64,000 nucleotides of DNA from the NCBI RefSeq assembly GCF_037042905.1, contig NW_026974149.1:1054001-1118000 (forward strand), given 5' to 3'. Within the stretch, counting starts at the first letter, position 1. Every line of letters begins with the position of its first letter. A program made the translations under genes and the position numbers. Origin of the DNA: Lytechinus pictus. Lineage: Eukaryota. The notes below the pieces were generated by a model that worked only from the letters and a program-made list of their open reading frames with translations, was not told where the DNA came from and did no database searches. Below, in pieces: positions 9,091 through 44,307 of this stretch.

Positions 9091-12000
9091 TTATGTCTGC
9101 TTAGATTACATTCTTTTGTTATACAAAATCTATCTACATAGACCTATGATTTCATTCACTTATACCCTTGCTCAATATACAAGGTTTATCAAATCCCTGG
9201 TGATCCCCCCCCCCCCCCCCTTTTCACTAAAAGCCCGGAGTCTGTTCGTCACATGTACGCGCTCATGACCGGACACACTCTTCCACTATGTACATACACC
9301 CTCACTTGCACCTTCACACACCTTTCACTCCAAGCTTTCAACACCGTATTGCACACCGAAGTTTATACCCTTCATGAACCTGGATGACGTATTGGATAAT
9401 GCAGTATTTACACCCCAGTGTAGATACTATACTGCCAACGAATTTAATTCAGTTTTTAATACTACCCAAATTAACAAACCAATCCACCTTAGCTTTATGC
9501 ATATAAACATTAGAAGCTTGCAAAAGAACTTTGATACTTTCAGTGAGTTTTTTTTCTATATTGAATACTTTTCCCTTTTCTGTAATCGCTATGTCAGAAA
9601 CATGGTTACACTCAACCACCCCATCCATTTTCAACATTGACAATTATACATTTAAACATAGTGATCGTAATCGTCGAACTGGAGGAGGTGTCGCTTTTTA
9701 TATTCACAATGATTTAAATTTTAAAATAAGACATGATATTCAACTCCAAGGTATAGAATCCTTATTCATAGAAATTATTGATGAAAAAAAAAAATAAGAT
9801 AGTCGGCGTAATCTACAGACCACCAAATAATATCGCCAACATATTTATGGATAAATTGGAATCTTGTCTAGAATTTATATCACACGAAAACAAGGAAACT
9901 TATCTCATGGGCGATTTCAATATAGATATATCTATGCCTCATACACCACTGGGCCAACAGTTTATTAACTTGTTTTCATCTTTTTCATTTAAATCTCTCA
10001 TTAACAGACCAACGCGGATAACAAGTACAACACACACAATCATTGATAATATATTTACCAATGTAGGTCTATTAGATAATTATAATAACAAAGGAATAAT
10101 TTACTACGACATTTCAGACCATTTACCCATATTCACAATTTGTAAAGATAATAGACATTTACAAAAACAACAAAATTTAGAAAATATTACCCGACGAAAA
10201 GAGACTAAACGTAACATAGAAACTTTAAAAACTGATTTGAGTGCAGAGAGTTGGGAAGATGTCTACAGAGAAGAAAATGTTAATAAATCATATGATGTAT
10301 TTTTAAATAAACTTATTCATTACTATGAAAAAAATGTACCTCTGATAAAAATTAAACTAAGTAAAAAGAAGAATAAACAACCATGGATCACTCAAGGCAT
10401 AATTAAATCAATACTCACTCGTAATAGATTTTATAAAATATCACTAAAATCACCTACTCAAGAACATAAAAACAAATACAAAAAATATCGTAATAAATTA
10501 ACGTCAATAATCCGTTTGGCACGCAAATCGTACTTTTCGAACAAAATTGAAAACAATAAAGATAATAATCAAACATTATGCACACAGTAAGCGAAATGTT
10601 AGGTAAGAAAAACGAATGATCTTAACAATGTTGATTTCCTTTTAAACGGACATACAACGAAAAACCCTACCGAAATTGCTGAAGCATTTAATTCTTTTTT
10701 CGCCAATGTTGGTCCTAACCTTGCATCTAGCATTGTCACTAATACCAACAAATTTTCTACATATTTAAATAACAATGCCGAACATTCTTTATTTTTTAAT
10801 CCTACTAATCTTCATGAAATTTTAGAAATCGTCCGATCCTTGAAATCTACTAAATCTTGTGGCCATGATGGTATCAGTGTATATTTACTAAAACAAATTA
10901 TTCATTTTGTGGCTTCTCCCCTTGTACATATTTTCAATTTATCTCTCTTAAAGGGAATTTTCCCGGATCAACTTAAACTTGCAAAAATAATCCCCATATA
11001 CAATCCCCTATTTCATTACTACCAAGCATATCCAAAATACTTGAAAAAATTGTTTATAAACGACTATATTCTTTTCTGGACACAAATAAATTATTAATTC
11101 CCAACCAATACGGCTTTAGGAAAAATCACTCAACTGACTATGCAATCTTACAATTATATGATAAAATACCAGATTCACTTTCCAAAAAAGAGCACACTGT
11201 TGGGGTTTTCATGGATCTATCGAAGGCATTCGATACCATGAATCATCATATATTGTTATGTAAATCAAAGACATATGGAATTAGAGGTATTGTACATTCT
11301 TGGTTTACAGACTTTTTAATTAATAGACGTCAATTTGTTAATTTTAAATCCAAGTCATCCCATACATGTCCCGTTAAATGTGGAGTACCTCAGGGTTCAA
11401 TCCTAGGTCCCTTATTATTTTTAATATATATGAATGATATTGTAAATGCATCACCTTTACTTACATATGTTTTATTCGCAGACGACACTAACATATTTTA
11501 TTCACATCAGAACTGAAACATTCTAGTTGCAACTCTTAATCAAGAATTTAAAAAATTATCATTATGGTTTAAATCAAATAGACTCTCCCTTAACATAAAT
11601 AAAACAAACTTCATGTACTTTAAACATATTAATTCTAAACAATTATTTCGCGACATCATTTATATCAATGATATGCCCATTAACAAAAAAAAAGGAAACA
11701 AAATTTTTAGGTGTATTGATCGATTCTAACGTAACATGGAGTAGTCATATTCGTAATATTAGCATGATGATTGCAAGGGCCATAGGCATCTTGTACAAAC
11801 TGAAATATTATCTATCTCAAAGATCATTACTAATGCTTTATAACTCCTTTATTTTGTCACACATTTCTTACTGTAACATAGCATGGGGAAATAGTAACAA
11901 AATAAAAATAGACTCAATATTACGCCTTCAAAAGAAAGCTCTTCGTATTTGTTATCACTCTCATTATCTCGCCCATACTGATCCATTATTTCATTATTTT

Positions 12001-12695
12001 AAGACATTGAAAATTTACGATATTCACACTTATCAAACTGCCATTTTCATGTATAAATTTTCCAACAACACTATTCCAGCATCCTTCCGTAATATTTTTG
12101 TTTACAACAGAGACATACATTCATACCCTACACGACATTCATCTGACTTTCACCTAACAAATCCAAAAATAATAATTGCTCACAAAACAATACGTCATCA
12201 CGGTCCTGAAGTTTGTAACACTTTGCCGAATAACATCAAACAAGCTACATCTCTTTTTTCCTTTAAAGCTTTGTTAAAAAGGTTTATTGTATCAAAGTAT
12301 TTGTAAAAATCTCACCTGCACATGCACCCACATATGCACCACTTCACCTGACCCCTTTACCCTCTCCCCCTTTTTTTCTTAACATTTCAAATAATTATGT
12401 GACATCATTATTATAGACCAATGAATTTTTCTCTACAATGGTTTTCATGTAGCTGCCTTCCTATGGCTGCTATTCTCTCAAGCATTTTGCTTATGATAGC
12501 TAGCCACTGCATTTTATTTTATATATTATTGCTTACATGTATATCTATGTAAATTATTCTTCTATCATGTAATCGTCGCAATTTGTAAATATTTCATTTA
12601 TTTTTGTATTTCTTTATATTCATTATGATTACTGTGTTTCATATATTGAATTTTTAATAAATGCAGAAACACCTGCAAAAAAAAATAAATAAAAA
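9091..12695 (+). mobile_element. CR1/L2-group (Crack-like) LINE: complete but frameshifted ORF2, 3' UTR, A-rich tail
   Basis: APE endonuclease motifs HINIRSL, SETWL, GGGVA, IYRPP, GDFN, IDNIF, SDHLPIF; RT motifs DLSKAFD, GVPQGSILGPLLF, FADDT; tail at 12677-12695. Confidence 0.93.
9374..12306 (+). pseudogene. LINE ORF2 (endonuclease-reverse transcriptase), disrupted
   Basis: Consecutive ORF pieces 9374-9640, 9531-9797, 9778-10590, 10840-11097, 11211-11516 and 11668-12306. Confidence 0.92.
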
Positions 12696-16125: not shown

Positions 16126-16202
16126 ATATATGTATATAGGCCTATGTGTGTGCGTGTGTGTGGGTTTGTTTGTTTTGTGTGATCGAGCGCCTTTGGAACG
16201 TT

Positions 16203-16895
16203 AGTAGTATATATAGGTACCCCTCGGGTCCTCGGAGGAGCAGGACTGCTCCTCGATGACGTCATAATCCGATTATAAAAATTATTCCGATTATAAATAA
16301 TAGAAATATGAATCATGAAATATTCTATATTGTTCTAAACAATAGAATATGAAATATTAATAAATAAATTAATCAATAATTAGGAAATATGAATCGATAA
16401 TTATGAAATATGAAAATATGGATTAATAAATTATGAATTATGTATCCATGAATTATGAAATATGGATTATAAAAAGACGGTATGACATAGTGACGAAACC
16501 TGAAAAAAAACAAATGACGTCATAGGGTTTGCACAACATCCATATCCATACTAAAAAACAAGAAGAAAGTAAAGAAACGATAGACATGTCTCGGACATGT
16601 CCATCGCATAGAGGCGATGCGTGCCTGACCATACGAGCGTGACGATAGGCCTATTGCACAACTTTTGAAAATATTGCATGGACTTTTTTTGTACGTTCGT
16701 ATAGCATTATCTACGAGTACAGTCGATAATAGTATCGGGTATTCCCTCAAGCATGACGTCAATGCACACTCGATCGTTCGTGCGTAACGATATTGCATAA
16801 GTTTGAATATTACATGGTAGGGTAAAGTGTGACATTGAATTTTCTAAACAGATAACATTGTTGATTTTTAGCATTAAATCTTAACTTTTTATACT
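16203..16895 (+). repeat. Left TIR of the Polinton-like element
   Basis: Reverse complement of 29708-30533. Confidence 0.93.
16582..16602. promoter_or_regulatory. Consensus p53-family response element in the TIR (mirror copy at 29999-30019)
   Basis: AGACATGTCT-C-GGACATGTCC is two perfect RRRCWWGYYY half-sites with a 1-bp spacer. Function untested. Confidence 0.6.
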
Positions 16896-17439
16896 CTCAT
16901 TGAAGTAGGGGGACGTGGGTATATTTTCCCCGCTCATTAAGCCAATGCATGCTTGATCATTCGAGCATAACACGGTACTTACATGCCAAATATTCAAATT
17001 CGACGTTGCACCACCACAATGTGCGTTGCGTAATCTGATAATCTTTAGTGAATCCTCTGAATCCTAATTAGTACAATTACGTTCCCATATAATTACGAAT
17101 CATCATTATTGTCACCAATTCCCATATCAGGTCTATACGCTACCCGTAGGTTATATTGTATAGTTGGTTGTTACACAGTGTTAAGTGAGCAGTGATGTGA
17201 GTGGTGGAGGTGTATGATTTCCTGTAGAACAAGCTAAATCATCCAAGCATGCACATCTTCATTTTCAATATATGGTACGGGCTTTGTACTACATCATGTG
17301 CTTGTTTATGTGTGAGGGTGTGTGTGTGTGTGTGTGTTTTTTAAGGAATCAAATACAATAACCTCAAAAGCAGAAGTCTTTCTGTTTCTTGTAATTGTCG
17401 TTTCATGAATTGAAAAAAGAGTTTTTGGTGCAACTTGAA

Positions 17440-19297
17440 TTAGTGAACGGCTGAACTAGTCGATTATCTTTGGTTTCATCATAACATTGTTTTAAAAGAA
17501 AATATATATTTTTCGTCATATTGTAGTATACCTTGCAGTACTTTTCATAATTTCTATTGTTTTAATCCGGGGTTTTAAATATGGCAAAGCGAAATCACGA
17601 TGGCCCGAATATTGATCGTGTATATCGAAGTATCCCCAACAACCATGAAAATATACAGCGTTAAGTTTTAGTATGATCCTAATGAATGCAAATACCCGTA
17701 GAGGATAAGAGTATTCCATCCCTTGGACCCAAAATCACATCGAATATCGAATTTAAGGGCACGCAACAAGATAATGTTCCGATCGATAGTTCGAAAAAAC
17801 GAAGATGCGCAACAGTTAGGCACACCGAATTACCACTTACTTATGGTGTATGTATTTGTTGAATAATTATGTAATGTGGCCGATTTACACATTTATCGCC
17901 ATTTAAGTAGAACTTTCACCGTTTGGTAAAAATGACATACACCTCGAACATTTTATCGATATAATAATGGGACTATGCTTTGATCAGAACTTCAGGTGTC
18001 TTATTTTTCACTCCGACCTCTTCTGCATAAAATTATGCGACAATCTTCTTGCTGTAAACTAGAATAGTATAGTAATAACATCCAGTACCATCATAAACCC
18101 GCGTACAAGTTTGCATAACAGCGGTACACCACCGTGAGTTTTCATGTTTCCAACTCTTTATATTTTTGTAAGAAAGATAATTCTCGTACAAACCTGTCGT
18201 AAGGAAAAAGCTATTGGATGACGTCACACTTCTCGGTTTGACAAGAAGACGATGTATATTGTATAATCGGAGTGCAGACATAATAGTCACGTGCGGGGAT
18301 CAATCGATCGAAAAGAAGTTGGGTGCATTATTCACAGAATGGCCAATATGTCATTCACTGGAGAGAAAAAAAATCCCCACCTTGGAAATGTCTAAATCCC
18401 CGAATAGTAAAACTTTTAAAATGAACATCATGAAGAAATGGTCATATCCATAAATCAACCCATTCCTAAACCTTGGTTAATCCACAAAAGCTTCATATCT
18501 TTGCACAAACCCAAGTAAGCCATTCGGCCATATGCCTTTCGAACGTCATCAAGTGATTTCGTGAGCCAGTTACCCATGAAAAGAAAAATGGGGGAACTCA
18601 TCTCAATACCGTAATGATTAGAGTAGATAGAAGTCCAGATTTGCTTTATTTATATACATGTATATTGATGTTTTATGGCGTCAAAAGCAGATTCAATAAC
18701 TTGTTATCTTCCCTAGTCTAATATTCTGCAATTTTTGTTTTACCGTTATTGCTATTAGTCGTTGGTTTTTCTTTACTTTCAAGCAATGAAATATATATAT
18801 ATATATTGAATGATATGAACTTTATTTTTTACATTTCTATTTTAACCTATATAATTATAACTCTTGCATGGGTTGAAATCATCACATCATCGTAATTGTA
18901 CTTTCTTTTTCGCGAAAATACAATGACAAGAGGGTAACTTTGATGTTAATATGCCAATGATTTGCCTAAGTGTGCTCTTTACTCCATCGGTCTGATCATC
19001 TTTTGATCAATGCCCAGAGACAGAATCGACTAGTTGAATATCTTGAAAGGCGGTCAGTATAAGCAATTCAGTATTGATTTTAGTCGCTCTTGCATAGAGA
19101 TATCAGCAAATACACAAGTACAGAAGAAGTCCTGAATAGCTTCACTGATTCTATTGTATACTCCTCAAAGAGGGGTATGACATCATCTCCCTTGTATTGC
19201 ATCTGACACGTCTGAGGGTACTTTCCAGACTTACAAACTTTCAAGTTCTGTCAAGATGCGGTCCCTTTTAGAGGTGTAGGGTAGCGATATTTTCCAT
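17440..19297 (-). pseudogene. Decayed ORF of unknown function, left copy of an inverted paralogous pair
   Basis: Peptides shared with the right copy: DRILTELESL / DRILSELESL and EYSYPLRVFAF...FHGCWGYFDI / EYSYPLRIFAF...FHSCCGYFDI. Confidence 0.55.
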
Positions 19298-21820
19298 AAT
19301 ATACTATATATCACTTATATTTTCATACCCTATTCCATTTAAAGTTGATGTACAGTATTCAACTCTCACCCGTTCTATGTTTTTCAAAATAACCTTTTTA
19401 AATCTTTAACATTTTATTCTTAATGTTTACATGCACTATGAATTTGCTGCGTCATTTACATGTATATATTCACTTTAATGCTACATTTAGCTATAGGTTT
19501 TATGTGTAATATTAATTTAGAATTGTTAAGTTGTGTAAATGTTTATGTATATCCAAAACTTTTGAACACACAGTACCAAATCTTTGATTTCTTTACATTT
19601 ATTTGAGTTTCATAGATATCCTGTATGTTATTAATAATTCAACGATGATGCCAATATAAAGCAGTTGATTTATTATTTTTTTCATTTTTTCTAAAGTATT
19701 GAATTCTTTTATTATTATCTTTGCTGTTTTTTCAATAAAGACACATGTTTGCAGTGATGTAATAAAAAAGATTCCACATCTCCCTGCATTATACTGTAAT
19801 ATCACTCGTTCATTCCATTATCCTTTTTATACGCCCCTTTGTCCCCCCCCCCCTCTCTCTCTCTCTCTCTTTGTCCTCTTTCAGACTCGCGTGAATCAAT
19901 TTTAATGTTTACATCTGACATCATCCTTTATCTATACATTCTATCATTACCACCTCTTTACAATTTTGCTTCCTTGCACATAACGGCCTCAATTAAACGA
20001 TTTACACAGAATATTTTTTGTACTACACTAAAAAACGTATAATAGTGTGCATCATGCTTCTTAACAAGCTAATCTTCTTACAATTTTATTACATTTCTTT
20101 ACTTAACTCAATATCAATAATAATTATTCTTTTTGAAAAACTCCATCTATCCATTTTAACTAGTCAACAAATTAAAACTCAATCTCCAACTCTCCTTCGA
20201 TCATTCTTATATACTAATATTCTAATATACTCTATCTCCTCTTCTTGCATGTCCATCTCCCAATTTTCACTCCCCTTTCACCATTATCAGCATACTACTC
20301 ACTTGATTTGCTTAATTTTCCATCAGTACTTTACTCATCATCGTTTTCATTCTTTTTTTCTTTCAATTCTCATATCATCAATCTATAAACTGACAAAAAT
20401 GAATAAGCCAGACACGTCATATGGGGTATGTAAATTTATTATATTTTTATCACACCATAATTACATGAACAAAACAATATATACATATTGATAGATGGAA
20501 CACAAATAATATGTAATTTAGATATAGTTATATTGAACTGCAGGTTATGATCTTGCACAATTACACTTTGCTGTATCTTTTTTTAATACAAATAATGTAT
20601 CATAATGATTAAAATAAATGTATGTACACTGAAATGAAAAAAAAATAATAAAAAATTGTCATTCATACCTTCTTAAAGTATATTTCATGACTTTATCATG
20701 TTTGCAATTTTAAACAGTACCAAACAGGATAACAAAATCAAATTACACGTTGGTTGTTTTTACAATATTACGGACAAAGTCAAAGCCTAACTTAATTTCT
20801 TCTTTTTTTTTTTACTTTAGAGACGAGAAGTACAAACGATAATACATTTTCAATTAAAACAATCGCAATTCGAATCATATAAAAGAGGATTGTATAATGA
20901 CTATCACTCTACTACATTTCATACAGTATTTTAAAAGTGTAAAACTAATAGGTAAATATTTACAAAACTTCATACTGTGAAAATAAATATGTGTTGTTTC
21001 TTATGTTGCATATACAAGAATAGCATGTAACTATATCAATGATGAATTCACCGTTATGATTTTTCACTAAACATGTTCTTGGTAACATCCCCAAATATTC
21101 AATACATCTTTTAAACAAACTTTACTGAATGCAATTAACTATCAGATGATGTTTCGTTTACATCCATAAATCTGTGAAATACCAACGTATACATGGTACA
21201 TGTACATTTTAAGGTACATATGATTATCTGAATCAAAATACAAGTCAACTCGGATTGTAATACAAAAATATAACATTATGCTATATTCAACAACAACAAA
21301 GTGCATCGTCAGGTTTGATACAATAATGAAATATTCTTAAGACCATTCTCTTATTTCAAATGGATGAAAGCAAATTGTTGCAAAGGGGTTTATTATATTT
21401 TGTGAAAGTAAATTGTATTCTAATAATTGTGAACTCAATATACATTATTGAAAACAGATTGTGAAAGCAAAGTGTGCAACATTTCGTAAAAGTTACTTTT
21501 ACTTCAGCAATTGTGAATTCATATTGTTGAAAAGAATTGTTAAAAAACAATTGCTCCAATTAAAGAGTATGTAAATGTACCACAAAAATCAATAAAATTT
21601 TGATTTGAACACCATTACCTTTTATACATAATTCCTAATCCACAGGATTACTCTCAACTAACATGGTATACAAATAGTTTACCGAAGGAAAAATTTTTTG
21701 CAGGTTATTTTCCAAAATGTATGAATTTGACACAGATATATCACAGCTAACTTTTAAATTCAATGCATTGAAGAGAGAATGTTCTGATAGAAAGTTTGGA
21801 TGGAATAAAAGTTGCAAATG

Positions 21821-24800
21821 TCAGATATCTAAGTAGGTAGTGGATACATTATCATCCAATACTTTTCTTTTTGGATAGAAATAGGTGAATGCATTCTTTA
21901 TTTGAGAGTAGGTGGAGATTCCATTTTGGACAACGCGAAAACCTTTGTTTACACCACTCCCAGCAACTAGTGAACGAAGAACGTTCAAGTACACATCTTT
22001 TGTTATGTTATTTTGCTTGTTATTAACACCCTTGCAGCTGAATTTGTCAGTAGCACCAAAGCAGTAATAAGTTTTACTGCAGAGGGCTATGATTCCATCG
22101 CCTTCCCACTCTACTTTGAACAACCCATGAGTTCTCTTATCATATCGAGCATTCTCCAGGGTATCATTTCGAGGGAACCAGTTGGCTTTGTCTTTTTCGT
22201 ATCTTTCCCTCATACATGGTTTGATTATGTCATCGAAAGAATCGGATGAAATGGCGATGTAAGCGGAATCTGTGTCCATTTCACACATTTGAAAATCGGA
22301 TGGCTCAACATATTTTAGCAGAAAGTCATAATAGAACTGTAGCATGCGCAGTTTGGCCAACTGGTATACAGCATGACTAATCTGAACTGGCAGGTCCATA
22401 TTGATCTTTCGTTTAGCCATATAAACTTCATAGCAATTGTCAGAGATTGGGTTTAGATCCCTGAAAAGGGTATTGTTGACATGTTTCTGGGCTTTAGCCT
22501 CATCACAGACATTAACATTTCGATGTTTTTCCTTATTAGTAATCGTCTTGCCGTAAGACGAATTGCCTATCAGCTTTATGGTGTCAGCGATAATGCTCTT
22601 CGAGGGATCAACATCATCTTTGCGTCGAGCTTTTGAAACGCTTTAACCAAAGTGCTTGAAGCAGGCAACTGGTTTGTACTCAATGAATTGGTGGATCTTG
22701 CTGACCACCAATCCATGGTTTAGGTACCATCTTAGAAGTGGTGTGTAGAGCAGAATGTTCTTACCAAACATACTACCGATCAGACTACGCCTTGGAGTTT
22801 TCATGATACCCATGTTCCTTGGCATAGAATCCCATCACATCTCCGATATCTTCTCTAGATATATCCACATTTTTGAAAATAGGACACATTTCAGAGAAGT
22901 ATTACCTGAGATGATCAGGGACCTTAATATCACACTGTACAAGCCCAAACAGGGCACCATGATGAATAGCAGAGAGAATGTTGTCTTGGGTTAATCCTTG
23001 ACGGTATTTAGGAGGGGAAAGTCTTTGTAAGAAATGCACTGAGCTTGGGATCAGTTTTACGCATTTTTTTATATTGGCATTCCCAGATGGAGATGTATTC
23101 GTAGCACAACCCTTCTACATTTTCTTGTTTCTCTTGAGTCTTTTTGAGTAAGTCTGCCATAGACTTCCCAAGCTTCGTATTTTTGGTCTGGTCTTTATTC
23201 AGATGGCATGAATGTCCATGGAAGTAACATCCATGGAATTCAAACACCTGTTTAGTTTGAGCACAAAAAACATCGACAGGGAGCTGAAGGGGACCAACTC
23301 TCTTTTTTTAATGATTACCTGCATGTCGGATAGGGATCTGTCGAGAGAAAATTTGATATTGAAGCCATTCTTGAGCGATTGGATGCTTATTTTCAGGCTT
23401 GAAATCATTCTCTGCCCTTCGTCTGACAAAGTGCCCTGTTGGCATCTTTTGCATTATTGCATGCAGGTACAAGGCATTTTTATCGAAACCTATGATCTTT
23501 TCACATGGCTTGCCCCCACGAATCGTTGTTACACCACGTTCATGATACCTATGAAATATAATGGATGGACCTCCTACCAGATTATCGCGGAAAGTATAAT
23601 AAAGATCCTTGTCTTTCTCATAGATTACGCTGAAATGCGCATCTGGACTACACTTCATGAGGTATTTTATGGTGAGTCCAGGTACAGAAATACCATCTTT
23701 GAACATATCGATTTTAAGATTCTTGTAAAAATCGCGCATTTTCTCTACCGCCTCAATGAACGGCGTAACATCGAGGTTATTGTACCATATTAGATAATCT
23801 CTTAGACTTCTCATGTTATTCTCTTTCCAGATTCGCTGACAGTATTCATATTGGTCTTGTGATAAAGCAGTATGATTGAGATTGTTGCTGAAAGTTTCAA
23901 TAAGGGGAAGTTCAGGTATTTTGAGTTTTTCCAGACAATCTACCCACCCGTGAGGAAAGAAACCTTTCATTCGTTCACAGTCATATGCTTTAAGAAAGGC
24001 TGCGTATGAAAAGCCAGGTGCAAGAAAATTAGAAATATCAAGAAACTGAAGGTGCTTTGATTTCAGAGCCATATGATTATGGTTCCGCTTGATGACGTAA
24101 TCAACAGAATCAAACTGTAGAAGTTAAGGATAGAGGTATTGTTTGATGGCATTGATATCATACCTCCCGGAATTGGACCCAACCACAGGGAGTTCTATGA
24201 TATGGTTCATGAAACGCTTCTTCAATCTCTGAAGATGTGTAGCTTTGTGAGGCGTTTCATTGTTTGCCTTCTGCCAACTCTCGTATTCTTGTATTGTTTC
24301 ATCTAATTTTTCTATCACATCCTGGTAAGAAGATTCTAGGAGAGAGCAAGAGTGCTTACTTATTTCCAGGAGGTACAATATCGAGTCATCAATTAATTTT
24401 TTGCAGTCTCCATCAGACACTTGGCAGTATGGTTCTGTGTACCCAGGAATATTTGAGTTGATACTCATGCTCATAGGGATGTGTCTTGAGGTAAACATTA
24501 GTTTTTCAGTTGGAGCATCGTTGGGATCTATATTATTGTCAATCTTCTCGAGATAGGATTCTATGTCAAATGTGGCAAAGTATGGAAAGTAGCGCCGTTC
24601 TTCTTCGACAGAGATGCCTTCCTCAGCCAGCTCTTCCCATATGGTCAAAGGGTTATGGAATGTAGCCCTGCCCGTGGGGAAAATATGCTTGGTGGCTGTA
24701 GAAGTACATATTTTCTCGTGTCGATGAAGTGATTTACGGGTTTTCATAGTTTGTCACATGTACGACATTGATAGTTTTGACAATATCTGTCAATATCTGA

Positions 24801-25733
24801 GATGAAACTAAAATGGTTTTCATATAGATTGACATACATTGTTTCCGGAAACTTGTCCAGTCCTCGTCTCACGAGCTTAGCAGCAACTGTACTTTCACTA
24901 TTTACCAATTCACCTTCATTTTCAAGAGGAATATTATCACCGTTGGTACATTCGACTGGCTGTAATTCGTACACCATGATATTAATCTTGAAGAATTCTT
25001 CGACTTTTTCCAATTTGCTTAGATCTCTTCCTTCAAAATCTGAATTTTTTTTTGTGAGGCACATACTGTTTAAATAATCTTTTAGCTGTAGTTTCAAGAC
25101 CATGAGAATTAGCACCTTGTAATAAAGCTAAACATCTAAAAATGCATAAGTTATCATCATACATCTGACAATCCCTATGACTCTTAACCAGAGATACGAT
25201 AGCTTGATTATTTTGTATATAATTTGGGAGGTCAATTCCGTGGCCAATGGGATGATCAGCAATTCGAAATACATAAAAAGTGACATTTGTGACATGCTGA
25301 ACGACCAATTTAGAATTTGGGCGAAGGGTTTGAGCATATTCAAGGATATCTTCCTTGAGTAATGTATCCAAAAACCTTTGGAATGACGAATGGTCAGAAA
25401 TAAGAACAGGTTCATTCAGAATCTTTGTGTTTGTACTAGCGTAATAATACCTACATTCATTGGTTTCATTGTTGCAAAGAGTAAATCCATACGATGCATT
25501 AACTTTGAAAGCTGTAGATTGATCCTCAAACACCTTCTGAGCCTTCTGTCTAAGGATATCATTGTTTAGATCTGGAAGATGGTAGTTGTAAAATCGATGA
25601 ACCCTTCCAAATGACCGTCTGTCTCTGATATTCAGCCAATGTTCCCTGTATACTTGGGCGGCACAACTCTTAGGATCGATGTCAGAAGGAAGGTTTACCG
25701 TGGTTGGTGCTAGGTTAGGTTGTTGACGGCGTC
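21821..25733 (-). pseudogene. polB: Protein-primed family B DNA polymerase (pPolB), multiply frameshifted
   Basis: DNLCIFRCLA; ExoI FDIES, ExoII NSGRYD, KGFFP, ExoIII YNNLDV; motif A FDKNALY..MPTG; motif B KLIGNSSYGKT (about 22544-22576); motif C MDTDSAY; KTY; KGV. Confidence 0.95.
23008..23300 (-). other. Vsr-like (PD-(D/E)xK) endonuclease domain inserted in pPolB between motifs A and B
   Basis: FEFHGCYFHGHSC ... YEYISIWECQY pattern. Confidence 0.75.
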
Positions 25734-26368
25734 CTGAGTAAAGAGATAATATTGAGATGTAAGAGATAATAAACACCATAATTTGAGTAGAGTCAGAGCA
25801 AGTATTTTTGCTTGGAAAACTTTTTGGTTTAAAATATTTGCCCATCCATTCATTTCAAATAACTTGAAACTTTTACTAATCATGCGATAGATGTTTTCCA
25901 TTCAGTTTCAAAGTTACCTGGGTTGTCATAATTTATGAATATCTAAAGTATTGGTAAAGAGTCAGTAATCATCAAACATTACGAAATTTTAAAGTGCAGT
26001 CGTAATTAAATGCATGTTGTACCCATTCGAATATTGGTTTCTTTGTTATATCTCTTTGCAATCTAGTAGAGAAGAAAAAAAAGGTGTTTCATGTAAGATT
26101 GAACCTATAGAGGGGGTCAAAATATAGACATACATAAATTATGCATGAAGATCAATCAAGAGAAAGAGAGAAAAACAGTGAAAGCTTTTTTTTTTACAAT
26201 TTTATAATATTGTGGGATCTCAAGGAGAACGAAATGAAAAAAATTACGTTAATGCAATGATTATAAGAGAAATTATATTTCAAGCCAGTTCTTGAAAGTT
26301 TAGAAAAAAAAGTACCAAGCAAAATTGACCTATTGAAGAAAAAATAATAATAAGATAGAATAACTTAC

Positions 26369-26810
26369 TTTTTGCTTGGTTTGACTCTGGTCCATCGGCA
26401 ACTCGCTTCTTTGGTAACTTTGGAGGAACGGGATTATGGTGCGACATTTCATGTTTCATAAATTTCGCACGATTATGAAATATCTGCCCACAAGTATGAC
26501 AAAGATAGGTTTCCTTGCGATGCGATTTCATGTGTTCATCAAGGTCCTTTTGCTCCAAGAACAGTGATTTGCATTGTGAGCAAGTTGGTCGCTGGTTCTC
26601 CTAATCAGGTTCAGCACCATTGCTAAAATCCTGATGAGTTTTCATATGACGTTTCAAATTATCCGGTCGACTAAAAGCTTGTCCACATGTATCACAAACA
26701 TGTAAAGTCCTTTGCCCATGATGGAACATGCGATCATGACGCATCAAATTTCTTTTAACAGTAAATTCTGCGCTGCAAATATCACAGCTGAAGGGAGGGT
26801 TGTTCTCAAT
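26369..26810 (-). pseudogene. Four-C2H2 zinc-finger exon with one in-frame stop; probable 5' exon of the pPolB gene
   Basis: FSCDICSAEFTVKRNLMRHDRMFH, VCDTCGQAFSRPDNLKRHMKTH, TCSQCKSLFLEQKDLDEHMKSH, YLCHTCGQIFHNRAKFMKHEMSH; ends at an A|GTAAGT donor. Confidence 0.85.
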
Positions 26811-27429
26811 GATGATTGTAAATCCAAAATGTACTTGTACAGAAGATACCCAAAGAGAACTCTATAAATATTGGCTTAGGTATTAAGTTGCTGGAACTCG
26901 TAGGCTGAGGTATAAAGTTCCTGTTCTGGAAGATTTCAGATATGTACACCTCCAGTGCTCCTCAAAGGTAGAATGGACAAATTATGTCATGCAGGTTGTT
27001 TAAATCTCCCTCTCCACTATTTGAGGTGGGGGATTTCCTGAAAGTTATGTAATACTGTCATGGTTGAATGATTTTACTGGCATGTTCTGACAGGAAATTA
27101 CACACATCCACCACACACTGACACGTGTGCTTGTGCAGTTCTTACTCTGTTTCACACAACAAAGTACAACCAGCTATATAATATACTGGTAGTGGTTATC
27201 CTATATGATCCACTACAATGATGATGGTTAATATTGCTTGTTGACCAATGTTCAAATGTGTAGACTCATGGTATAAAGGTATTATCAAGATTATTGAGTT
27301 AAAAGATACGACAGAAATATTATTAAAGAAAATAAAACAGATGAGACTGAAAATACTTATACCGAGGCTTTAGTAAATTGTGACATAATAAACACCTACA
27401 AAGAACAATACAACAACAACAACAAAATG

Positions 27430-27870
27430 AAATATTTTACCCTGTACACTAACAAGGATCGCATCTTGTCAGAACTTGAAAGTTTGGAAATAAAAAGTCC
27501 CGCAAGTGCAATAAGGGGGAAATGGTGTCATAACTTTCTTTGAGGAGGAAGACAATATAATTGGTGAAGCTGTTTACGTCTTCTTCTTAACTTGTTTATT
27601 TGCTGATTTCTATACAATAGCGAACAAAATCAATATTGAATTTCTTACAGACCGACCACCTTTGAAGAAATCAAACTAGTCGATTCGGTCTATGGGTTTT
27701 GATCAAACGATGATCCGATCGATGGAAGAAAGAGCACACTGGTCGTTGGCTTTCTCTACAATTTCGCGAAAAGAAAAGTACTATTACGATGATGTGGTGA
27801 TTTCAACCCATGCAAGATTTTATGACTATACGCGTTAAAATAGAAATGTAAAAATAAAGTTCATATCCTT

Positions 27871-27904
<34 letters not shown>

Positions 27905-29605
27905 CATTGCTTGAAAGTAAAGAAAGAATAAACAACGACTAAAAGCAATAACGGCAAAACAAAAACTGCGAAATAATGGAGTAGAAAAGATAGTTACTTA
28001 AGTTGTTACTAAATCTGCTTTTGACGTCAAAAACATCAACATACTTTTAGCATAAAGCAAATCTGGACATCTATTTACTTTAATCATTTAGGTATTGAGA
28101 GGAATTGCCCCATTTTTGTTCCATGGGTAACTTGCTCACGAATACACTAGATTTTTATGACATTCGAAAAGCCTACTGCTTTTTTTTTTTTAAGGATGGA
28201 ATAGTTGCCATTCTGTGAACACGACGATGGACATAATGTACACAACTTCTTATCGATTTTCCCGCACGCGACTATTGTACCTGCAGAAAGTGTGACGTCA
28301 TCCAATAACTTACCAACGACAGGTTTTGGCTAGAGTTTTTTTTCTTTGAAAAATAGATAGAGTTGGAAAGTTGAAAACTTACGGTGGGTACCCCCTTTTT
28401 GCAAACTTGTACGGGTCTACGATATAGAATGTTTCTAGTATTCCTTATTATTCTCGTATAGTATTTATATAATATTCCTTATAAGATTGTTGCATCTATA
28501 TTTAGATGTAGAAGAGGAGTGAAAAGAGCTTGATGTTCTGATCAAAATATAGTCCTATTATTATATCGATACAATGGTCGAGAGGTGTGTATCATTTTTA
28601 CAAAACGGTGAAAGCTTTACTCTGCAGTAAATGTGTAAATAAGCCACATTACATTTCTTTTGCAACACCATAATCAAGTTGAAATTCGGGGTGTGTTACT
28701 GTTACGCATCTTCTTCTTTTTTTCTTCTTCTACTTCTTCTTCTTCTTTCTTTTTAGGAACTATTGGAACATTATCTAGTTGCGTTACCTTTGATTTCGAT
28801 GAGTGGATGATAGGAACAATTGAACCATTTGAATAACAGCGTGAAATTTTTATAAATAGAATGCGATTGGATAGAAACAGGTAAAATAATGTTTTTTTTT
28901 CTTTGGCTGCATGAACAAAATGAACAAATTGAACAAAATGTATTTGTTTTTGTTTATATATTTTGACTACATTATATTTTTCTTTAACTATTTATAGATG
29001 CTAAATGCATCCCTTGTTCATTTTACACGAATTACTTTTACACAAGGCGATATGTTTTAGTTACCTTATTTATTTCTTCAGTGTAGATTTACTACGAATC
29101 GTTTGAATAAATTAAAATGAAAGAGATGGATGATAGAAACAAAATGAACAATTTGAATAATAGCGTGAATTTCTTGTAAATAGAATGCAATTGGGATAGA
29201 AAAAGGCTTTTGGTGTAAATAATGTATTTTGTGTTACAAATAATGAAAAAAAAAGTGAATTGAACAATATGAATAAAATGAACAAACTAAACAAATTGGA
29301 CTTTGTTGCGTGTCCTTTGATTTCGATTTCATTTCGGTCCAAGGGCTGGAATACTCTTATCCTTTACGGATATTTGCATTCATGGGGACCATAAACATAT
29401 CTTGTTTTCATAGTTGTTGCGGATACTTCGATATTACTCGATAAATATCATATGATCGAAGAAGCGATGTTCCCCTTGCCAAAATTAAAACAAAGAAGTG
29501 AAACGTTATACTGTAATATAATAACATAGCAATGGGTTTCGTAATATTTTTTTTTTATTGTTGTAATGATGAGTGAGAAAAGATGATCGATTAGTTCAGC
29601 CGCGT
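27430..29605 (+). pseudogene. Decayed ORF of unknown function, right copy of the inverted pair
   Basis: Collinear reverse-complement similarity to 17440-19297 including a shared (TA)n tract; extra ~0.5 kb at 28800-29305. Confidence 0.55.
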
Positions 29606-29707
29606 ATATACTTCGATATCGATTATATCAAAACACTTTGCAATTTCTACATTCATGACATTTAAGGGAGTTGGATTTCGACATATAAATGAAACATTTG
29701 TTTTTTA

Positions 29708-30533
29708 AGTATAAAAAGTTAAGATTTAATGCTCAAAATGAACAATGTTATCTGTTTGGAAAATTAATTGTCACACTTTATCCTACCATGTAATATTCAA
29801 ACTTATGCGATATCGTTACGCACGAATGATCGAGTGTGCATTGACGTCATGCTTGAGGGAATACCCGATATTATTATCGACTGTGCTCGTGAATAATGAT
29901 GTACGAACGTACAAACATTCCATGCAATATTTTCAAAAGTTGTGCAATAGGCCTATCGTCACGCTCGAATGATCATGAACGCATCGCCTCTATGCGACGG
30001 ACATGTCCAAGACATGTCTATCGTTTCTTTACTTTCTTCTTGTTTTTTTAGTACGGATATGGATGTTGTGCAAACCCTATGACGTCATTTGTTTTTCAGG
30101 TTTCGTCACTCTATGTCATACCGTCTTTTTATAATCCGTATTTCATAATTTATGGATACATAATTCATAATTTATTAATCCATATTTTCATATTTCATAA
30201 TTATCGATCCATATTTCGTATTTCACAATTATCGATCCATATTTCATATTTCCTAATTATTGATTAATTTATGTATTAATATTTCATATTCTATTGTTTA
30301 GAACAATATAGAATATTTCATGATTATCGATCCATATTTCATATTTCATAATTATTGATTCATTTATTAATATTTCATATTCTATTGTTTAGAACAATAT
30401 AGAATATTTCATGATTCATATTTCTATTGTTTATAATCGGAATAATTTTTATAATCGGATTATGACGTCATCGAGGAGCAGTCCTGCTCCTCCTGCTCCT
30501 CCGAGGACCCGAGGGGTACCTATATATACTACT
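29708..30533 (-). repeat. Right TIR of the Polinton-like element
   Basis: Reverse complement of 16203-16895, with extra internal duplications (9 bp and about 90 bp). Confidence 0.93.
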
Positions 30534-30971
30534 AACGTTGATTCATGATTTTGCCCCCCCCCCCCATCTGAAAATGGATCGACGCCCCTGTCTAAATGCA
30601 TAACAAACCTCGATATAATCTTCCTTTGTACGTTTCATAATCATTATTCGGTCAATTTAGAGTATAGATCTACTTTGATTTAAAAGGACAATATTTGGTT
30701 TATTTTCTTAAATCAAACGAAATGACACTTGTAAGAGATGGTTACTGAAAATCAGCAAATGCCTTTCCAAGTCAAAGTTATTGGTCATTTGAGTCTAAAT
30801 TGAAAAAGGACCCACACCCTGAATTTTGAAAATCAATTTGAATGTAGTTGTTAGCTTTCTGTACTTGAAAATATAAGTTTTCAATTGTAATTATATCTAG
30901 TCTGTTTTTAAAGGAGAAATTCAAAGCACCTCCAAAAATGCAATTAATTTCAAGCAGAAATCATGTAGAAC

Positions 30972-41759: not shown

Positions 41760-43620
41760 CCATACACTTTACACGTATGCGAAATACGACAATCTCAAAT
41801 CCAATTTTGCAAGTGAAATACGGGCATGATCCCGGCATCTGATTGGAGCATGAAGGCAACATTTCCGAAAGCTTAGAATCTCAGCTACAACATACCAAAT
41901 GCTCAGGGATGACAGACAAGAAGGAATGGAGATATGGCTCACCAAATAGAGGAATGTAGAATCTAGTTTTGAAAAAAAAGTCATGTCCCATAGAGATAAC
42001 ACGCAAGATGAGTAAAAATGACATGCCTTTATTATTTGCAATTTTTCAGGAAGATCCTTTGTTTTTAAATGAAAATTTTCAAAATTGGTCGCAAATTGAC
42101 CATTATTCACGGAGTTAGAGCCAAATTTGCATAATTATAATGACGTCATAAAACGCAAAATGGATATTTTGACTTCCAACGCCATTTTGATGACGTCATA
42201 ATATACGTTAGGGTCCAATGAGACATGAAATTATATGTATGATTCATACTCTATTGAATCATGAAAAAATGGGGGTCCCCGTTCGTTCTGAAGAGCTACA
42301 GTAAATTTTTAATCGGCATGTTTTTGCCAATATAGAGCCTACGGAAAAAGCTCGCGCGCACGCGTGCTGCAAACTTTAATGGGTGCTCATTCCCTCATCA
42401 ATGATCGTAGAGAGCTGATCGAGGTATCAATTTGATCAGAATTATATCAATAATAGATACGCATAAAAAAACATGGAATTTATGCTGCATAACGCCGTTG
42501 CGCTCGAAAACGCGCGGCGCGCGCAAAATGTTGAAATGCTTGAAATGACCTGAAATGTACCCAAAATTAATTGTAGAGTAAATATTGCGAAAGCTTAGAA
42601 TCTCAGCTACATCATACTAAAAGCTTAGGGATAACTGACAAGAAAAATGGAGATAGAGCTCACGAAATAGATAAATGTAGAATCTATATTTGAGAAAAAG
42701 TCATGTCCCTTCAGATTTTACGCAAAATGAGGAAAAATAACATGCCTCTTTTCATTGCTGTTTTACGCCATAATGCATTTCTCAAAATAAAAATCTATGT
42801 TAATAAGGAGAAAGAGTACATTTTAAACTACAACATATCGAATCTCGGCAAAAAAGGATCAATATTTACAGAGTTATAATCAAATTTGTATAAATTTGAT
42901 TATGTCATTTTTGAAAAAATTAAATTTTCAGTTTAGGCGAAATTTCGATGACGTCATTATCAAATTGAGGGACAATTGTGTCGTGTTTTTCCATATAGAG
43001 CCTATGGAAAGAGCTCGCGCGCACGCGTGCTGCAAATTATAATCGGTGATCATTCCCTCATTAATGATTGTAGAGAGCTGATCGAGGTATCAATTTGATC
43101 AGATTTATATTAATATTAGATACGCATAGAATAAAGAACAAATTCATGCTGCGTGACGCCGTTACGTACGAGAATGCGCGCAGATACATGCGCGCGCAAA
43201 ATGTTGAAATGCTTAAAATGACCTGAAACGTACCCAACAATTTTTAGAGGCCATTTTGAGAATTTGTATAGGTTTGACGCGCGTGTCATGGCCTTTACAT
43301 GACCTTTGATGACATTGACAGACGACTTTTTACCTAAAGTTTATTTGATATAAGTTTGATCTATTATTGATGATCCGTTATGTTGATATGATTAAATTAA
43401 TAATTTTACAAAATGGCGCGTAGATGACGTCATCATAACCAGATGACCTTGAAAAGCATAGTATGCCGTCTCTATGTTAGACTCTATATATGACAGAAAC
43501 AAATCAGTCAAATTGATTCAGCCGATTCGGAGAAAAGTTTGCGACAACCATAGGTACCAAGAATAAATCAATTAAGAAATAAAGAAATAAAATTATGACG
43601 AAATTAAAGGAAACCAACAG
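41760..43620. repeat. Unclassified interspersed repeat with an internal ~0.7-kb direct duplication
   Basis: 41866-42030 matches 42587-42750, and 42330-42560 matches 42993-43235. Confidence 0.75.
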
Positions 43621-43855: not shown

Positions 43856-44205
43856 ATGGTGCTGTGCCAAGCTTTCGGGTGTTCGAATCGGAGCAGAAAA
43901 TGTCAGGACGAGAGTTTTCACCCGATTCCCGATCCAAAAAGCGATGCAGAATTGTGCAAAAAGTGGTTAGCTGCCTTTCGAGTGGAGAAATTTAATCCAA
44001 ATTCCTACCAGTATGACAGGAATAATGTAATTTGTAGTGATCAATTCACGGCAAGTAACTTCATGGAGGACATTCGTGCACGGCTTATGAACACGAAACC
44101 AAGGAAAATGCTGAAAGAAGGTGCTGTTCATTCCATATTTGCTCATCGGGCTCCTCCAAAAGTGAGAGAACAAAGAAGATGCTGTCTCAAAGATCTGCAA
44201 AGCAG
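43856..44205 (+). pseudogene. THAP zinc-finger first exon, probably from a DNA transposon, with degenerate motifs
   Basis: MVLCQAFGCSN..SFHPIP..LCKKW..VICSDQF..LKEGAVHSIF; the zinc-ligand His reads Q and AVP reads AVH; CAG|GTTAGT donor; GGCAGCCATGTTTT just upstream. Confidence 0.85.
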
Positions 44206-44307
44206 GTTAGTATAGTTTGATGCTGAAATTATAAATAACCAGTTTGAAAAAAAAATCATGTTTGTATTATCTTCGCGCGCACCCTTGTTTACGAATGGGG
44301 TCGGGGC

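What the first reader, a model, noticed from the sequence alone, without database searches (positions are those of the whole stretch)
16256..16761. TIRs carry a perfect p53-type response element and three CRE/ATF palindromes: a possible damage-inducible switch
Seen: AGACATGTCT-C-GGACATGTCC at 16582-16602, mirrored at 29999-30019, where the spacer base differs but both half-sites are intact. TGACGTCA occurs at 16257, 16515 and 16754, mirrored at 30463, 30080 and 29842. A hairpin GAGGAGCAG-GA-CTGCTCCTC lies at about 16235-16254. Established: RRRCWWGYYY x2 is the p53/p63/p73 consensus, and adenovirus ITR regions use host ATF sites. Inference: the element may sense host or germline DNA damage, like prophage induction, or be policed by p53.
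Basis: partly seen in the sequence, partly recalled or inferred. Interest (0 to 1): 0.75.

Follow-up and report, generated by a model that had tools for sequence, protein, structure and literature searches.

The report
Polinton ends carry p53-type, CRE sites
The ends of a virus-like jumping element in an animal genome carry repeated CRE motifs shared by most of its relatives and one p53-type motif kept in only one sub-lineage, so they likely act as a host-driven control region in which the host's p53-family protein would be a side input, and a DNA-damage switch remains untested.

Summary
All motifs are present at the stated coordinates and exceed chance. They lie in the terminal inverted repeats (TIRs) of a 14.3-kb Polinton/Maverick derivative (16203-30533, AGTAGT ends, 6-bp TSD). 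It carries a broken protein-primed polymerase with a spliced zinc-finger exon, and no integrase or capsid gene was found. CRE arrays are general: 16 of 20 TIR ends sampled in this genome have two to nine. The p53-type pair is inherited but patchy: 2 or fewer mismatches in 8 of 9 ends of one sub-lineage (perfect in 4), in 0 of 11 others, and missing from the closest polymerase relative, a recent insertion. In relatives it sits about 55-65 bp upstream of a TATA box; in this copy that TATA segment is replaced. The host has one p53-family locus with its DNA-contact motifs intact. An unrelated Polinton lineage from a metagenome shows p53-type pair + CRE + TATA promoters. Against a switch: the 1-bp spacer is non-canonical, conservation does not exceed the flank, and there are no binding or induction data. 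Verdict: a real host-factor array; p63-type binding about even odds; damage induction about 0.2.

The parts
16197..16202 (.). Left 6-bp target-site duplication AACGTT
   Evidence: same hexamer at 30534-30539
16203..30533 (.). Non-autonomous Polinton/Maverick derivative, 14.3 kb, (AGT)2 ends
   Evidence: end motif and TSD as described in PMC8097293
16203..16895 (+). Left TIR core (89-90% identical to the right TIR in two blastn pieces)
16235..16254 (.). Palindrome/hairpin before the first CRE; mirror 30473-30492, with a 9-bp duplicated arm to 30501; kept with paired changes in copies C19, C20 and C17m
16257..16264 (.). CRE 1 (mirror 30463-30470)
16329..16343 (.). Inverted ATTGTT..AACAAT pair inside AT-rich repeats; Sox-like (label recalled)
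16515..16522 (.). CRE 2 (mirror 30080-30087); position shared with C8 and C17/C3 copies, decayed to TGATGTCA in C12
16529..16536 (.). TTGCACAA, C/EBP-like (label recalled); further copies at 16654-16661 and 16793-16800
   Evidence: 3 found, 0.22 expected
16555..16578 (+). Purine-rich block as conserved as the p53-type motif next to it
16582..16602 (.). p53/p63-type pair, two perfect CATG decamers, 1-bp spacer
16606..17137 (+). Segment shared with the C19/C20 type, replacing the TATA-bearing segment that follows the motif in C8, C12, C17 and C3 copies
16754..16761 (.). CRE 3 (mirror 29842-29849); TGTCGTCA in C19 and C20
17609..19271 (.). Degenerate inner inverted repeat (72-77%) paired with 27449-29448; CREs at 18219, 28022, 28293
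21821..25733 (-). Protein-primed PolB with a VSR-like insert, broken into several frames by stops and frameshifts
   Evidence: intact C19 relative called DNA_pol_B_2-like by features, VSR match E 5e-4
25734..26368 (-). 635-nt GT-AG intron joining the zinc-finger exon to the polymerase frame, phase-compatible
   Evidence: joint in 4 of 4 contig runs from 2 studies; phase check
26369..27118 (-). C2H2 zinc-finger exon (frame interrupted by a stop at 26601-26603) and leader
27174..27185 (-). TATA-like box upstream of the zinc-finger exon, about 2.8 kb inward of the right p53-type pair
   Evidence: function inferred
29708..30533 (-). Right TIR core, longer through expanded AT-rich repeats
29999..30019 (.). 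Mirror p53/p63-type pair
30534..30539 (.). Right target-site duplication

Best explanation
The motifs lie in the terminal repeats of a non-autonomous Polinton, and these repeats likely act as a promoter/enhancer built from host transcription-factor sites, with the CRE array as the likely core and the p53-type pair as a likely real but dispensable input from the host's single p53-family protein. Shown: the element's anatomy; CRE enrichment across three TIR types; inheritance of the p53-type pair in one sub-lineage; its place about 55-65 bp upstream of a TATA box in relatives; its absence from a recently inserted close relative; and a spliced zinc-finger-polymerase transcript from this family. 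Inferred: bZIP factors (CREB/ATF, C/EBP-like) would bind and drive the first gene inside each end, as at adenovirus ITRs. The p63-type protein would bind the pair with reduced efficiency and tune expression in germline or stressed cells. In this copy, recombination just after the motif removed its native TATA, so it could act only as a distant enhancer or as a passenger. My odds: CREs functional 0.85; pair bound in vivo 0.5; damage-inducible 0.2.
For: CRE: 2-9 copies in the first 800 nt of 16 of 20 TIR ends, each against 0.00-0.04 expected. In 90 Polinton-integrase loci from metagenome and viral contigs, non-coding CREs number 11 against 1.15 expected, and occur in 3 of 38 non-redundant TATA promoters against 0.13 (0 of 300 shuffles). 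p53-type pair: best pair at 2 mismatches or fewer in 8 of 9 family-A ends (0-2 of 100 shuffles each). Changes between the window and C12 keep the consensus (T>A at W, T>C at Y), and the only change between the two TIRs hits the spacer. The pair or its second half precedes TATAAA in C8, C12, C17 and C3 copies. Host p53-family exons keep NRR and VRVCACPGRDR. An unrelated lineage (integrase 42-44% identical to C3f, no DNA similarity to these TIRs) has a perfect spacer-0 pair, then a CRE, then TATAAAA at L210:7640, a 1-mismatch pair in the same order at L210:9382, and a 2-mismatch pair before the orthologous gene in L198. A 1-nt spacer leaves in-vitro binding at 0.83 and lowers reporter activity by 45% (PMC2518093, passages). 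ATF sites in adenovirus ITRs matter for growth (PMC2794291, passage).
Against: Conservation of the pair is not above its 5' flank. Zero changes in 20 positions against 24 of 430 and 13 of 431 elsewhere is not significant, since about 1.1 and 0.6 would be expected. The eight A-type ends share one origin. In three of them (C8g left, C17f, C3f) a mismatch hits a core position, and these include the two full-length copies with unbroken core genes that I examined most closely. C8f's second half has 2 flank mismatches and C6r has no pair. 0 of 11 other ends have the pair, and 4 of 20 have no CRE either. Spacer-1 and half sites underlie only 1.1-5.1% of p53 peaks and many of them are p53-only sites (PMC7735755), whereas sea urchins are reported to have only a TP63-like gene (PMC13043383; the host being a sea urchin rests on earlier AI notes). 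Outside this genome the signal is thin: 1 of 38 promoters (17 of 300 shuffles reach that); spacer-0 pairs number 4 against 0.35, but 3 of the 4 come from two related elements, and spacer-1 pairs number 0 against 0.4; a looser CWWG spacing test shows no peak at 10 or 11. Perfect spacer-1 sites also recur in an unrelated repeat. Three raw RNA runs gave only 7, 3 and 6 reads out of 8.3-8.7 million each.
Confidence: 0.55

Rival explanations
1. The pair is a damage-inducible switch: activated host p63 would bind it, cooperate with ATF/CREB and turn on the first viral gene, much as SOS induction turns on a prophage.
For: Promoter-proximal position in relatives; among the 6 strongest spacer-1 sites in 812 Mb; the same pair + CRE + TATA layout in an unrelated lineage; UVB raises p53-pathway genes and ATF-2 in sea urchin coelomocytes (PMC13043383 passages); expression differs sharply between runs (sample conditions unknown).
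Against: Absent from C19, which has 95% polymerase identity, a 1340-aa open frame and 100% identical TIRs, and from all four non-A TIR types; partly broken in full-length C17f and C3f; native TATA lost in this copy; no induction data.
Confidence: 0.18
2. The pair has no p53-family function: one chance decamer was doubled or homogenised by slippage in a TIR rich in short tandem duplications, and it has been carried along since.
For: 22 perfect half-sites occur in the window; the TIR has many short duplications; the two halves form an 11-bp near-repeat; conservation is not above the flank; there is no genome-wide excess of spacer-1 sites (63 vs 52) or spacer-0 sites (41 vs 65).
Against: The halves differ in C12, C8, C17 and C3 yet mostly keep the consensus; the position upstream of TATA is fixed; a similar layout appears independently in L210/L198.
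Confidence: 0.2
3. The host p63 binds the pair to repress or police the element, and loss of the pair in other sub-lineages is escape.
For: Patchy distribution, with core damage in full-length copies and absence from a recent insertion; p53 restraint of transposons is reviewed in PMC5031199 (search listing and start of abstract only); AAV ITRs with putative p53 sites trigger p53-dependent apoptosis (PMC11760972 passages).
Against: A purely harmful site should decay quickly, yet it is perfect in two diverged TIR types (window, C12) and recurs before orthologous genes in L210/L198.
Confidence: 0.08
4. The sites serve other proteins or replication: the pair would be read by another factor (CP2/Grainyhead CNRG repeats, Smad AGAC/GTCT boxes, or the element's own C2H2 zinc fingers; motif labels recalled), and the array would help protein-primed initiation as NFI and Oct-1 do at adenovirus origins.
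For: Tandem CAAG cores 10 bp apart with poor p53 flanks occur in C8, C5 and C6 TIRs; the polymerase transcript carries C2H2 fingers; adenovirus ITRs bind cellular factors for replication.
Against: The pair lies 380-515 nt from the terminus and beside a TATA box in relatives; C19 encodes the same zinc fingers but lacks the pair.
Confidence: 0.1

Closest known systems
Polintons/Mavericks (adintoviruses); PMC8097293, PMC8502044, PMC10748475 (passages read)
   Same: (AGT)2 end motif, 6-bp TSD, TIRs, protein-primed PolB with a VSR-like insert; full-length relatives with related TIRs in the same genome encode integrase, A32-type ATPase, adenoviral protease and PC4.
   Different: This copy lacks integrase, capsid, protease and ATPase matches, has a spliced C2H2 leader and a broken polymerase. 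Term searches found no 'p53' or 'promoter' in the main text of PMC8502044 and no 'promoter' in PMC10748475.
Adenovirus ITR with ATF, SP1, NFI and NFIII sites (PMC2794291, passage)
   Same: Host factor sites, including TGACGT, clustered at the ends of a protein-primed linear genome.
   Different: Here the TIR is five times longer, the element is integrated, the CREs are full palindromes in arrays, and a p53-type pair is added; that passage lists no p53 site.
p53 response elements in transposons: zebrafish EnSpmN6_DR; human LTR, L1 and Alu (PMC3485254, abstract)
   Same: A p53-type site carried inside a non-autonomous DNA element.
   Different: Those sites were tested and drive host genes. This one is untested, has a 1-bp spacer and points inward to genes of a virus-like element.
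AAV ITR putative p53 sites (PMC11760972, passages)
   Same: p53-type motifs in the terminal repeats of a dependent DNA virus.
   Different: The AAV motifs are GC-rich predictions in a single-stranded hairpin linked to host apoptosis, not a two-decamer site next to a TATA box.

Membership tests
Polinton/Maverick | TIRs with (AGT)2 or (AG)3 end motif | tested here: met
   definition
Polinton/Maverick | 6-bp target-site duplication | tested here: met
   AACGTT on both sides
Polinton/Maverick | Protein-primed PolB | tested here: met
   No Pfam hit, but the 95%-identical C19 protein scores 0.95 to DNA_pol_B_2 clusters and shows NSSYGK and DTDS motifs and a VSR insert; broken in this copy
Polinton/Maverick (autonomous) | Integrase, capsid proteins, ATPase, protease | tested here: not met
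   No tblastn hit with C3f proteins at E 1e-3; filed as a non-autonomous derivative
p53-family response element | Two RRRCWWGYYY decamers | tested here: met
p53-family response element | Canonical zero spacer | tested here: not met
   1-bp spacer; a non-canonical but usable form for human p53
p53-family response element | Cognate factor present in the host | tested here: met
   One PF00870 locus (3 exon matches out of 6 candidates scored) with DNA-contact motifs; the K120-equivalent exon was not examined
p53-family response element | Conserved above flanking sequence | tested here: inconclusive
p53-family response element | Bound by the factor and confers a response | not testable with these tools
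   needs EMSA, ChIP or a reporter
CRE/ATF element array | TGACGTCA enriched and retained in regulatory DNA | tested here: met
CRE/ATF element array | Bound by CREB/ATF and needed for transcription | not testable with these tools
   no binding data
Damage-inducible provirus | Transcription or excision rises after DNA damage | not testable with these tools
   the runs laid carry no treatment labels

The most novel reading that the evidence does not exclude
Some animal Polinton lineages have repeatedly wired their first genes to the host's p53/p63 plus CREB/ATF, giving endogenous DNA viruses of animals a prophage-like exit signal on genotoxic stress; this family and the unrelated L210/L198 lineage would be two instances.
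Probability: 0.2. Interest if true: 0.85.

Novelty: new variant of a known kind. Interest (0 to 1): 0.5.

Why it matters
What switches animal Polintons on is an open question. This gives named, testable inputs and natural controls within one genome: TIRs with a perfect pair, a damaged pair, no pair, and no CRE. Even without p53, each Polinton family here appears to carry its own array of host-factor motifs, which predicts different tissue or stress specificities. I found no paper on p53 or CRE sites in Polinton TIRs. 'polintovirus'+'p53' gave 0 papers. 'polinton'+'p53'+'terminal inverted repeat' gave 9, mostly general reviews. 'maverick'+'polinton'+'DNA damage'+'reactivation' gave 4, none on this by title. 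Searches listed nothing relevant. I saw listings only, and the library lacks most subscription papers.

Tried and rejected
Pfam did not recognise the window's or C19's polymerase, and a PDB search with the window fragment was blank. A single-integrase scan of viral contigs found no relatives. Scans of viral contigs for a CRE followed by a p53-type pair within 25-55 nt found 0. An own-genome search on the flank found no further family copies (its pattern fitted the C8 type and missed the window type). I checked 18 of the 41 spacer-0 sites and 15 of the 63 spacer-1 sites for nearby Polinton genes: none had any, so the idea that the two C7 sites 19.5 kb apart mark another Polinton was dropped. 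The CWWG periodicity test was negative. No holder run is on record as RNA. Contigs of four runs stop at 26960-27118 and leave 27.2-29.8 kb almost uncovered, but no DNA run was laid as a control, so this is not used as evidence for the start site. The four CREs at 42141-43425 belong to a different repeated sequence and were not followed. An LxCxE search in 13 loci found none; two PxDLS matches were found, one in L198 and one at the C3f polymerase end. No structure or complex prediction was run. No supplements were read; those of PMC8502044 and PMC8097293 might hold TIR annotations that bear on novelty.

Full report
Observation. The p53-type pair is at 16582-16602 and 29999-30019, the CREs at 16257, 16515, 16754 and 29842, 30080, 30463, and the palindrome at 16235-16254. 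Shuffles give 0.66 CREs per window against 13 found, and no p53-type pair. Genome-wide there are 63 perfect spacer-1 pairs (reversed control 52) and 6 with CATG in both halves (control 4), 3 of them this family's TIRs. The mirror copies are one event.

What the element is. The repeats close a 14.3-kb element, 16203-30533, with AGTAGT ends and the 6-bp duplication AACGTT, the Maverick signature in PMC8097293 (passages). Inside is a polymerase broken into several frames. Its 95%-identical relative on C19 has a 1340-aa open frame, groups with DNA_pol_B_2 proteins and carries a VSR-like insert. The lack of a Pfam03175 hit suggests the divergent 'Beta' class of PMC8502044 (inference). Integrase, capsid, protease and ATPase of a full-length copy (C3f) find nothing in the element, so it is non-autonomous. 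Contigs of four runs from two studies join 25732 to 26368 across a GT-AG intron, putting a C2H2 zinc-finger exon in phase with the polymerase. Library type and treatment of those runs are not on record. Three raw RNA runs gave 7, 3 and 6 reads. Earlier AI notes call the host a sea urchin; I did not test that.

Family test. A DNA search and an integrase search found the other Polinton ends in the genome (both score only the best candidates, so the set is incomplete). I scored the first 800 nt of 20 ends from 19 elements. Ends too degraded to place, second ends of most elements and further tandem-array copies were left out. CREs number 2-9 in 16 ends and 0 in 4 (types D and E). The best p53-type pair has 2 mismatches or fewer in 8 of 9 family-A ends: perfect in the window (both ends), C29b and C12; two flank mismatches in C8f; a core position hit in C8g left (7-bp deletion), C17f and C3f; none in C6r. 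It has 3-6 mismatches, within the shuffle range, in all 11 other ends. These include C19, the nearest polymerase relative, whose 3.4-kb TIRs are 100% identical. The pair is therefore not needed for recent insertion.

Position and conservation. The alignment shows the pair at a homologous place after a purine-rich block in window, C12, C8 and C5 copies. In C8, C12, C17 and C3 a TATAAA follows about 55-65 nt later. In the window the sequence switches to the C19 type right after the pair, so that TATA is gone. The nearest gene on the right is the zinc-finger exon, with a TATA-like box at 27174-27185, about 2.8 kb away. Substitutions in the pair between the window and C12 keep the consensus, and the single left-right difference is the spacer. 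But the 5' flank is as well conserved, and zero changes in 20 positions is unremarkable at 3.0-5.6% divergence. The hairpin is kept with paired changes in C19, C20 and C17m, but palindromes can also be homogenised without selection.

Host factor and spacer. One p53-family locus was found, with NRR and VRVCACPGRDR intact; the exon scored better against p63/p73 than p53 structures. For human p53, a 1-nt spacer leaves binding at 0.83 in vitro and cuts reporter output by 45% (PMC2518093, passages), and such sites occur at productive loci (PMC12143595, passages). They underlie only 1.1-5.1% of peaks, counted together with half sites, and many are p53-only rather than p63 sites (PMC7735755, passages). 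This matters if the host gene is TP63-like (PMC13043383, passages).

Outside this genome. An integrase alignment fetched 80 metagenome loci (the best 80 of 541) and 10 viral loci. In 88.6 kb of non-coding DNA there were 11 CREs (1.15 expected), 4 spacer-0 pairs at 2 mismatches or fewer (0.35) and 0 spacer-1 pairs (0.4). Three of the four belong to L210 and L198, whose integrases are 70% identical to each other and 42-44% to family A, with no DNA similarity between L210 and these TIRs. L210 twice shows pair, CRE, TATAAAA, start codon. A stricter promoter test, whose filter dropped the L210:7640 and L198 promoters, found a pair in 1 of 38 (17 of 300 shuffles reach that) and a CRE in 3 of 38 (0 of 300). 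A loose spacing test was flat. So there is one independent lineage, not a general rule. An earlier unchecked note (e1-7352920) reports a similar motif in another genome; it is a lead only.

Mechanism. Most likely the TIR is a host-factor control region like the adenovirus ITR (PMC2794291, passage), with bZIP sites as the core and a p63-type site as an optional input of one sub-lineage (0.55). In this copy it could act only at a distance. Rivals: no function (0.2), damage-inducible switch (0.18), another factor or a replication role (0.1), host policing (0.08). Binding, direction of effect and induction are all untested.

Novelty and score. Host sites in viral ITRs and p53 sites in transposons (PMC3485254, abstract; PMC11760972, passages) are known. 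I found none reported for Polintons (listings only). New variant of a known kind; interest 0.5. The bold reading, recurrent p53/p63 wiring as a prophage-like trigger, has probability 0.2 and would merit 0.85.

Noticed in passing
window 25734-26368 (-): A GT-AG intron joins a C2H2 zinc-finger exon in phase to the polymerase frame; seen in 4 of 4 contig runs from two studies. C19 has a matching donor.
   Followed up: partly
window 16603-16606: The TIR is chimaeric: C12-like up to the end of the p53-type pair, C19-like after it, with a C17m/C15-type terminus.
   Followed up: partly
G000:C19:4647614-4662238: Polymerase-plus-zinc-finger element with 3.4-kb, 100% identical TIRs and no integrase or capsid frame.
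   Followed up: partly
G000:C29:1043187 onward (L046, L047): A second copy of the window's element 27 kb upstream, 92-97% identical over window 16203-25182; no right TIR was found for it.
   Followed up: partly
L091, L092, L103, L106, L110, L113, L072: Each other Polinton TIR type has its own motif array: CRE plus GCCACGCCCC; ATGAATATTAAT plus AACCCTA repeats; TGACCTTTGACC, ACTTCCGG and TTAATTGG repeats; GATGGCCATT repeats. These resemble KLF/Sp, POU, nuclear-receptor, ETS and YY1 sites (labels recalled).
   Followed up: no
G000:C15:2.05-2.10 Mb and C312: A tandem array of about 2.9-kb period containing Polinton termini of this family.
   Followed up: no
L063, L064, L061: 5-6 kb mini-elements with Polinton ends; L063 and L064 are nearly fully palindromic with two copies of a 225-aa zinc-finger/acidic gene, and L061 has one 219-aa homologue. 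Similar elements appear in earlier notes.
   Followed up: partly
L210:7640-7790, L210:9382-9500, L198:644-663: Spacer-0 p53-type pairs in promoters of an unrelated Polinton lineage, with CRE and TATAAAA in L210; the L198 gene behind the pair is a GRF zinc-finger protein with a PLDLS motif (CtBP-binding in adenovirus E1A, recalled).
   Followed up: partly
G000:C7:5927120 and 5946617; C15:17677210: Strong spacer-0 sites outside Polintons; candidate host p63 targets.
   Followed up: no
L033, L034, L037, L039, L043: An unrelated repeat family holds perfect spacer-1 sites; about 9 of the 50 sites listed look alike.
   Followed up: no
window 42141-43432: Four more CREs in a different internally repeated sequence upstream of a THAP-domain frame at 43856-44215.
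   Followed up: no
window 9781-12306; 47405-48796: Reverse-transcriptase fragment (RVT_1 at 11211-11516) and a weak PNMA/gag-like frame.
   Followed up: no
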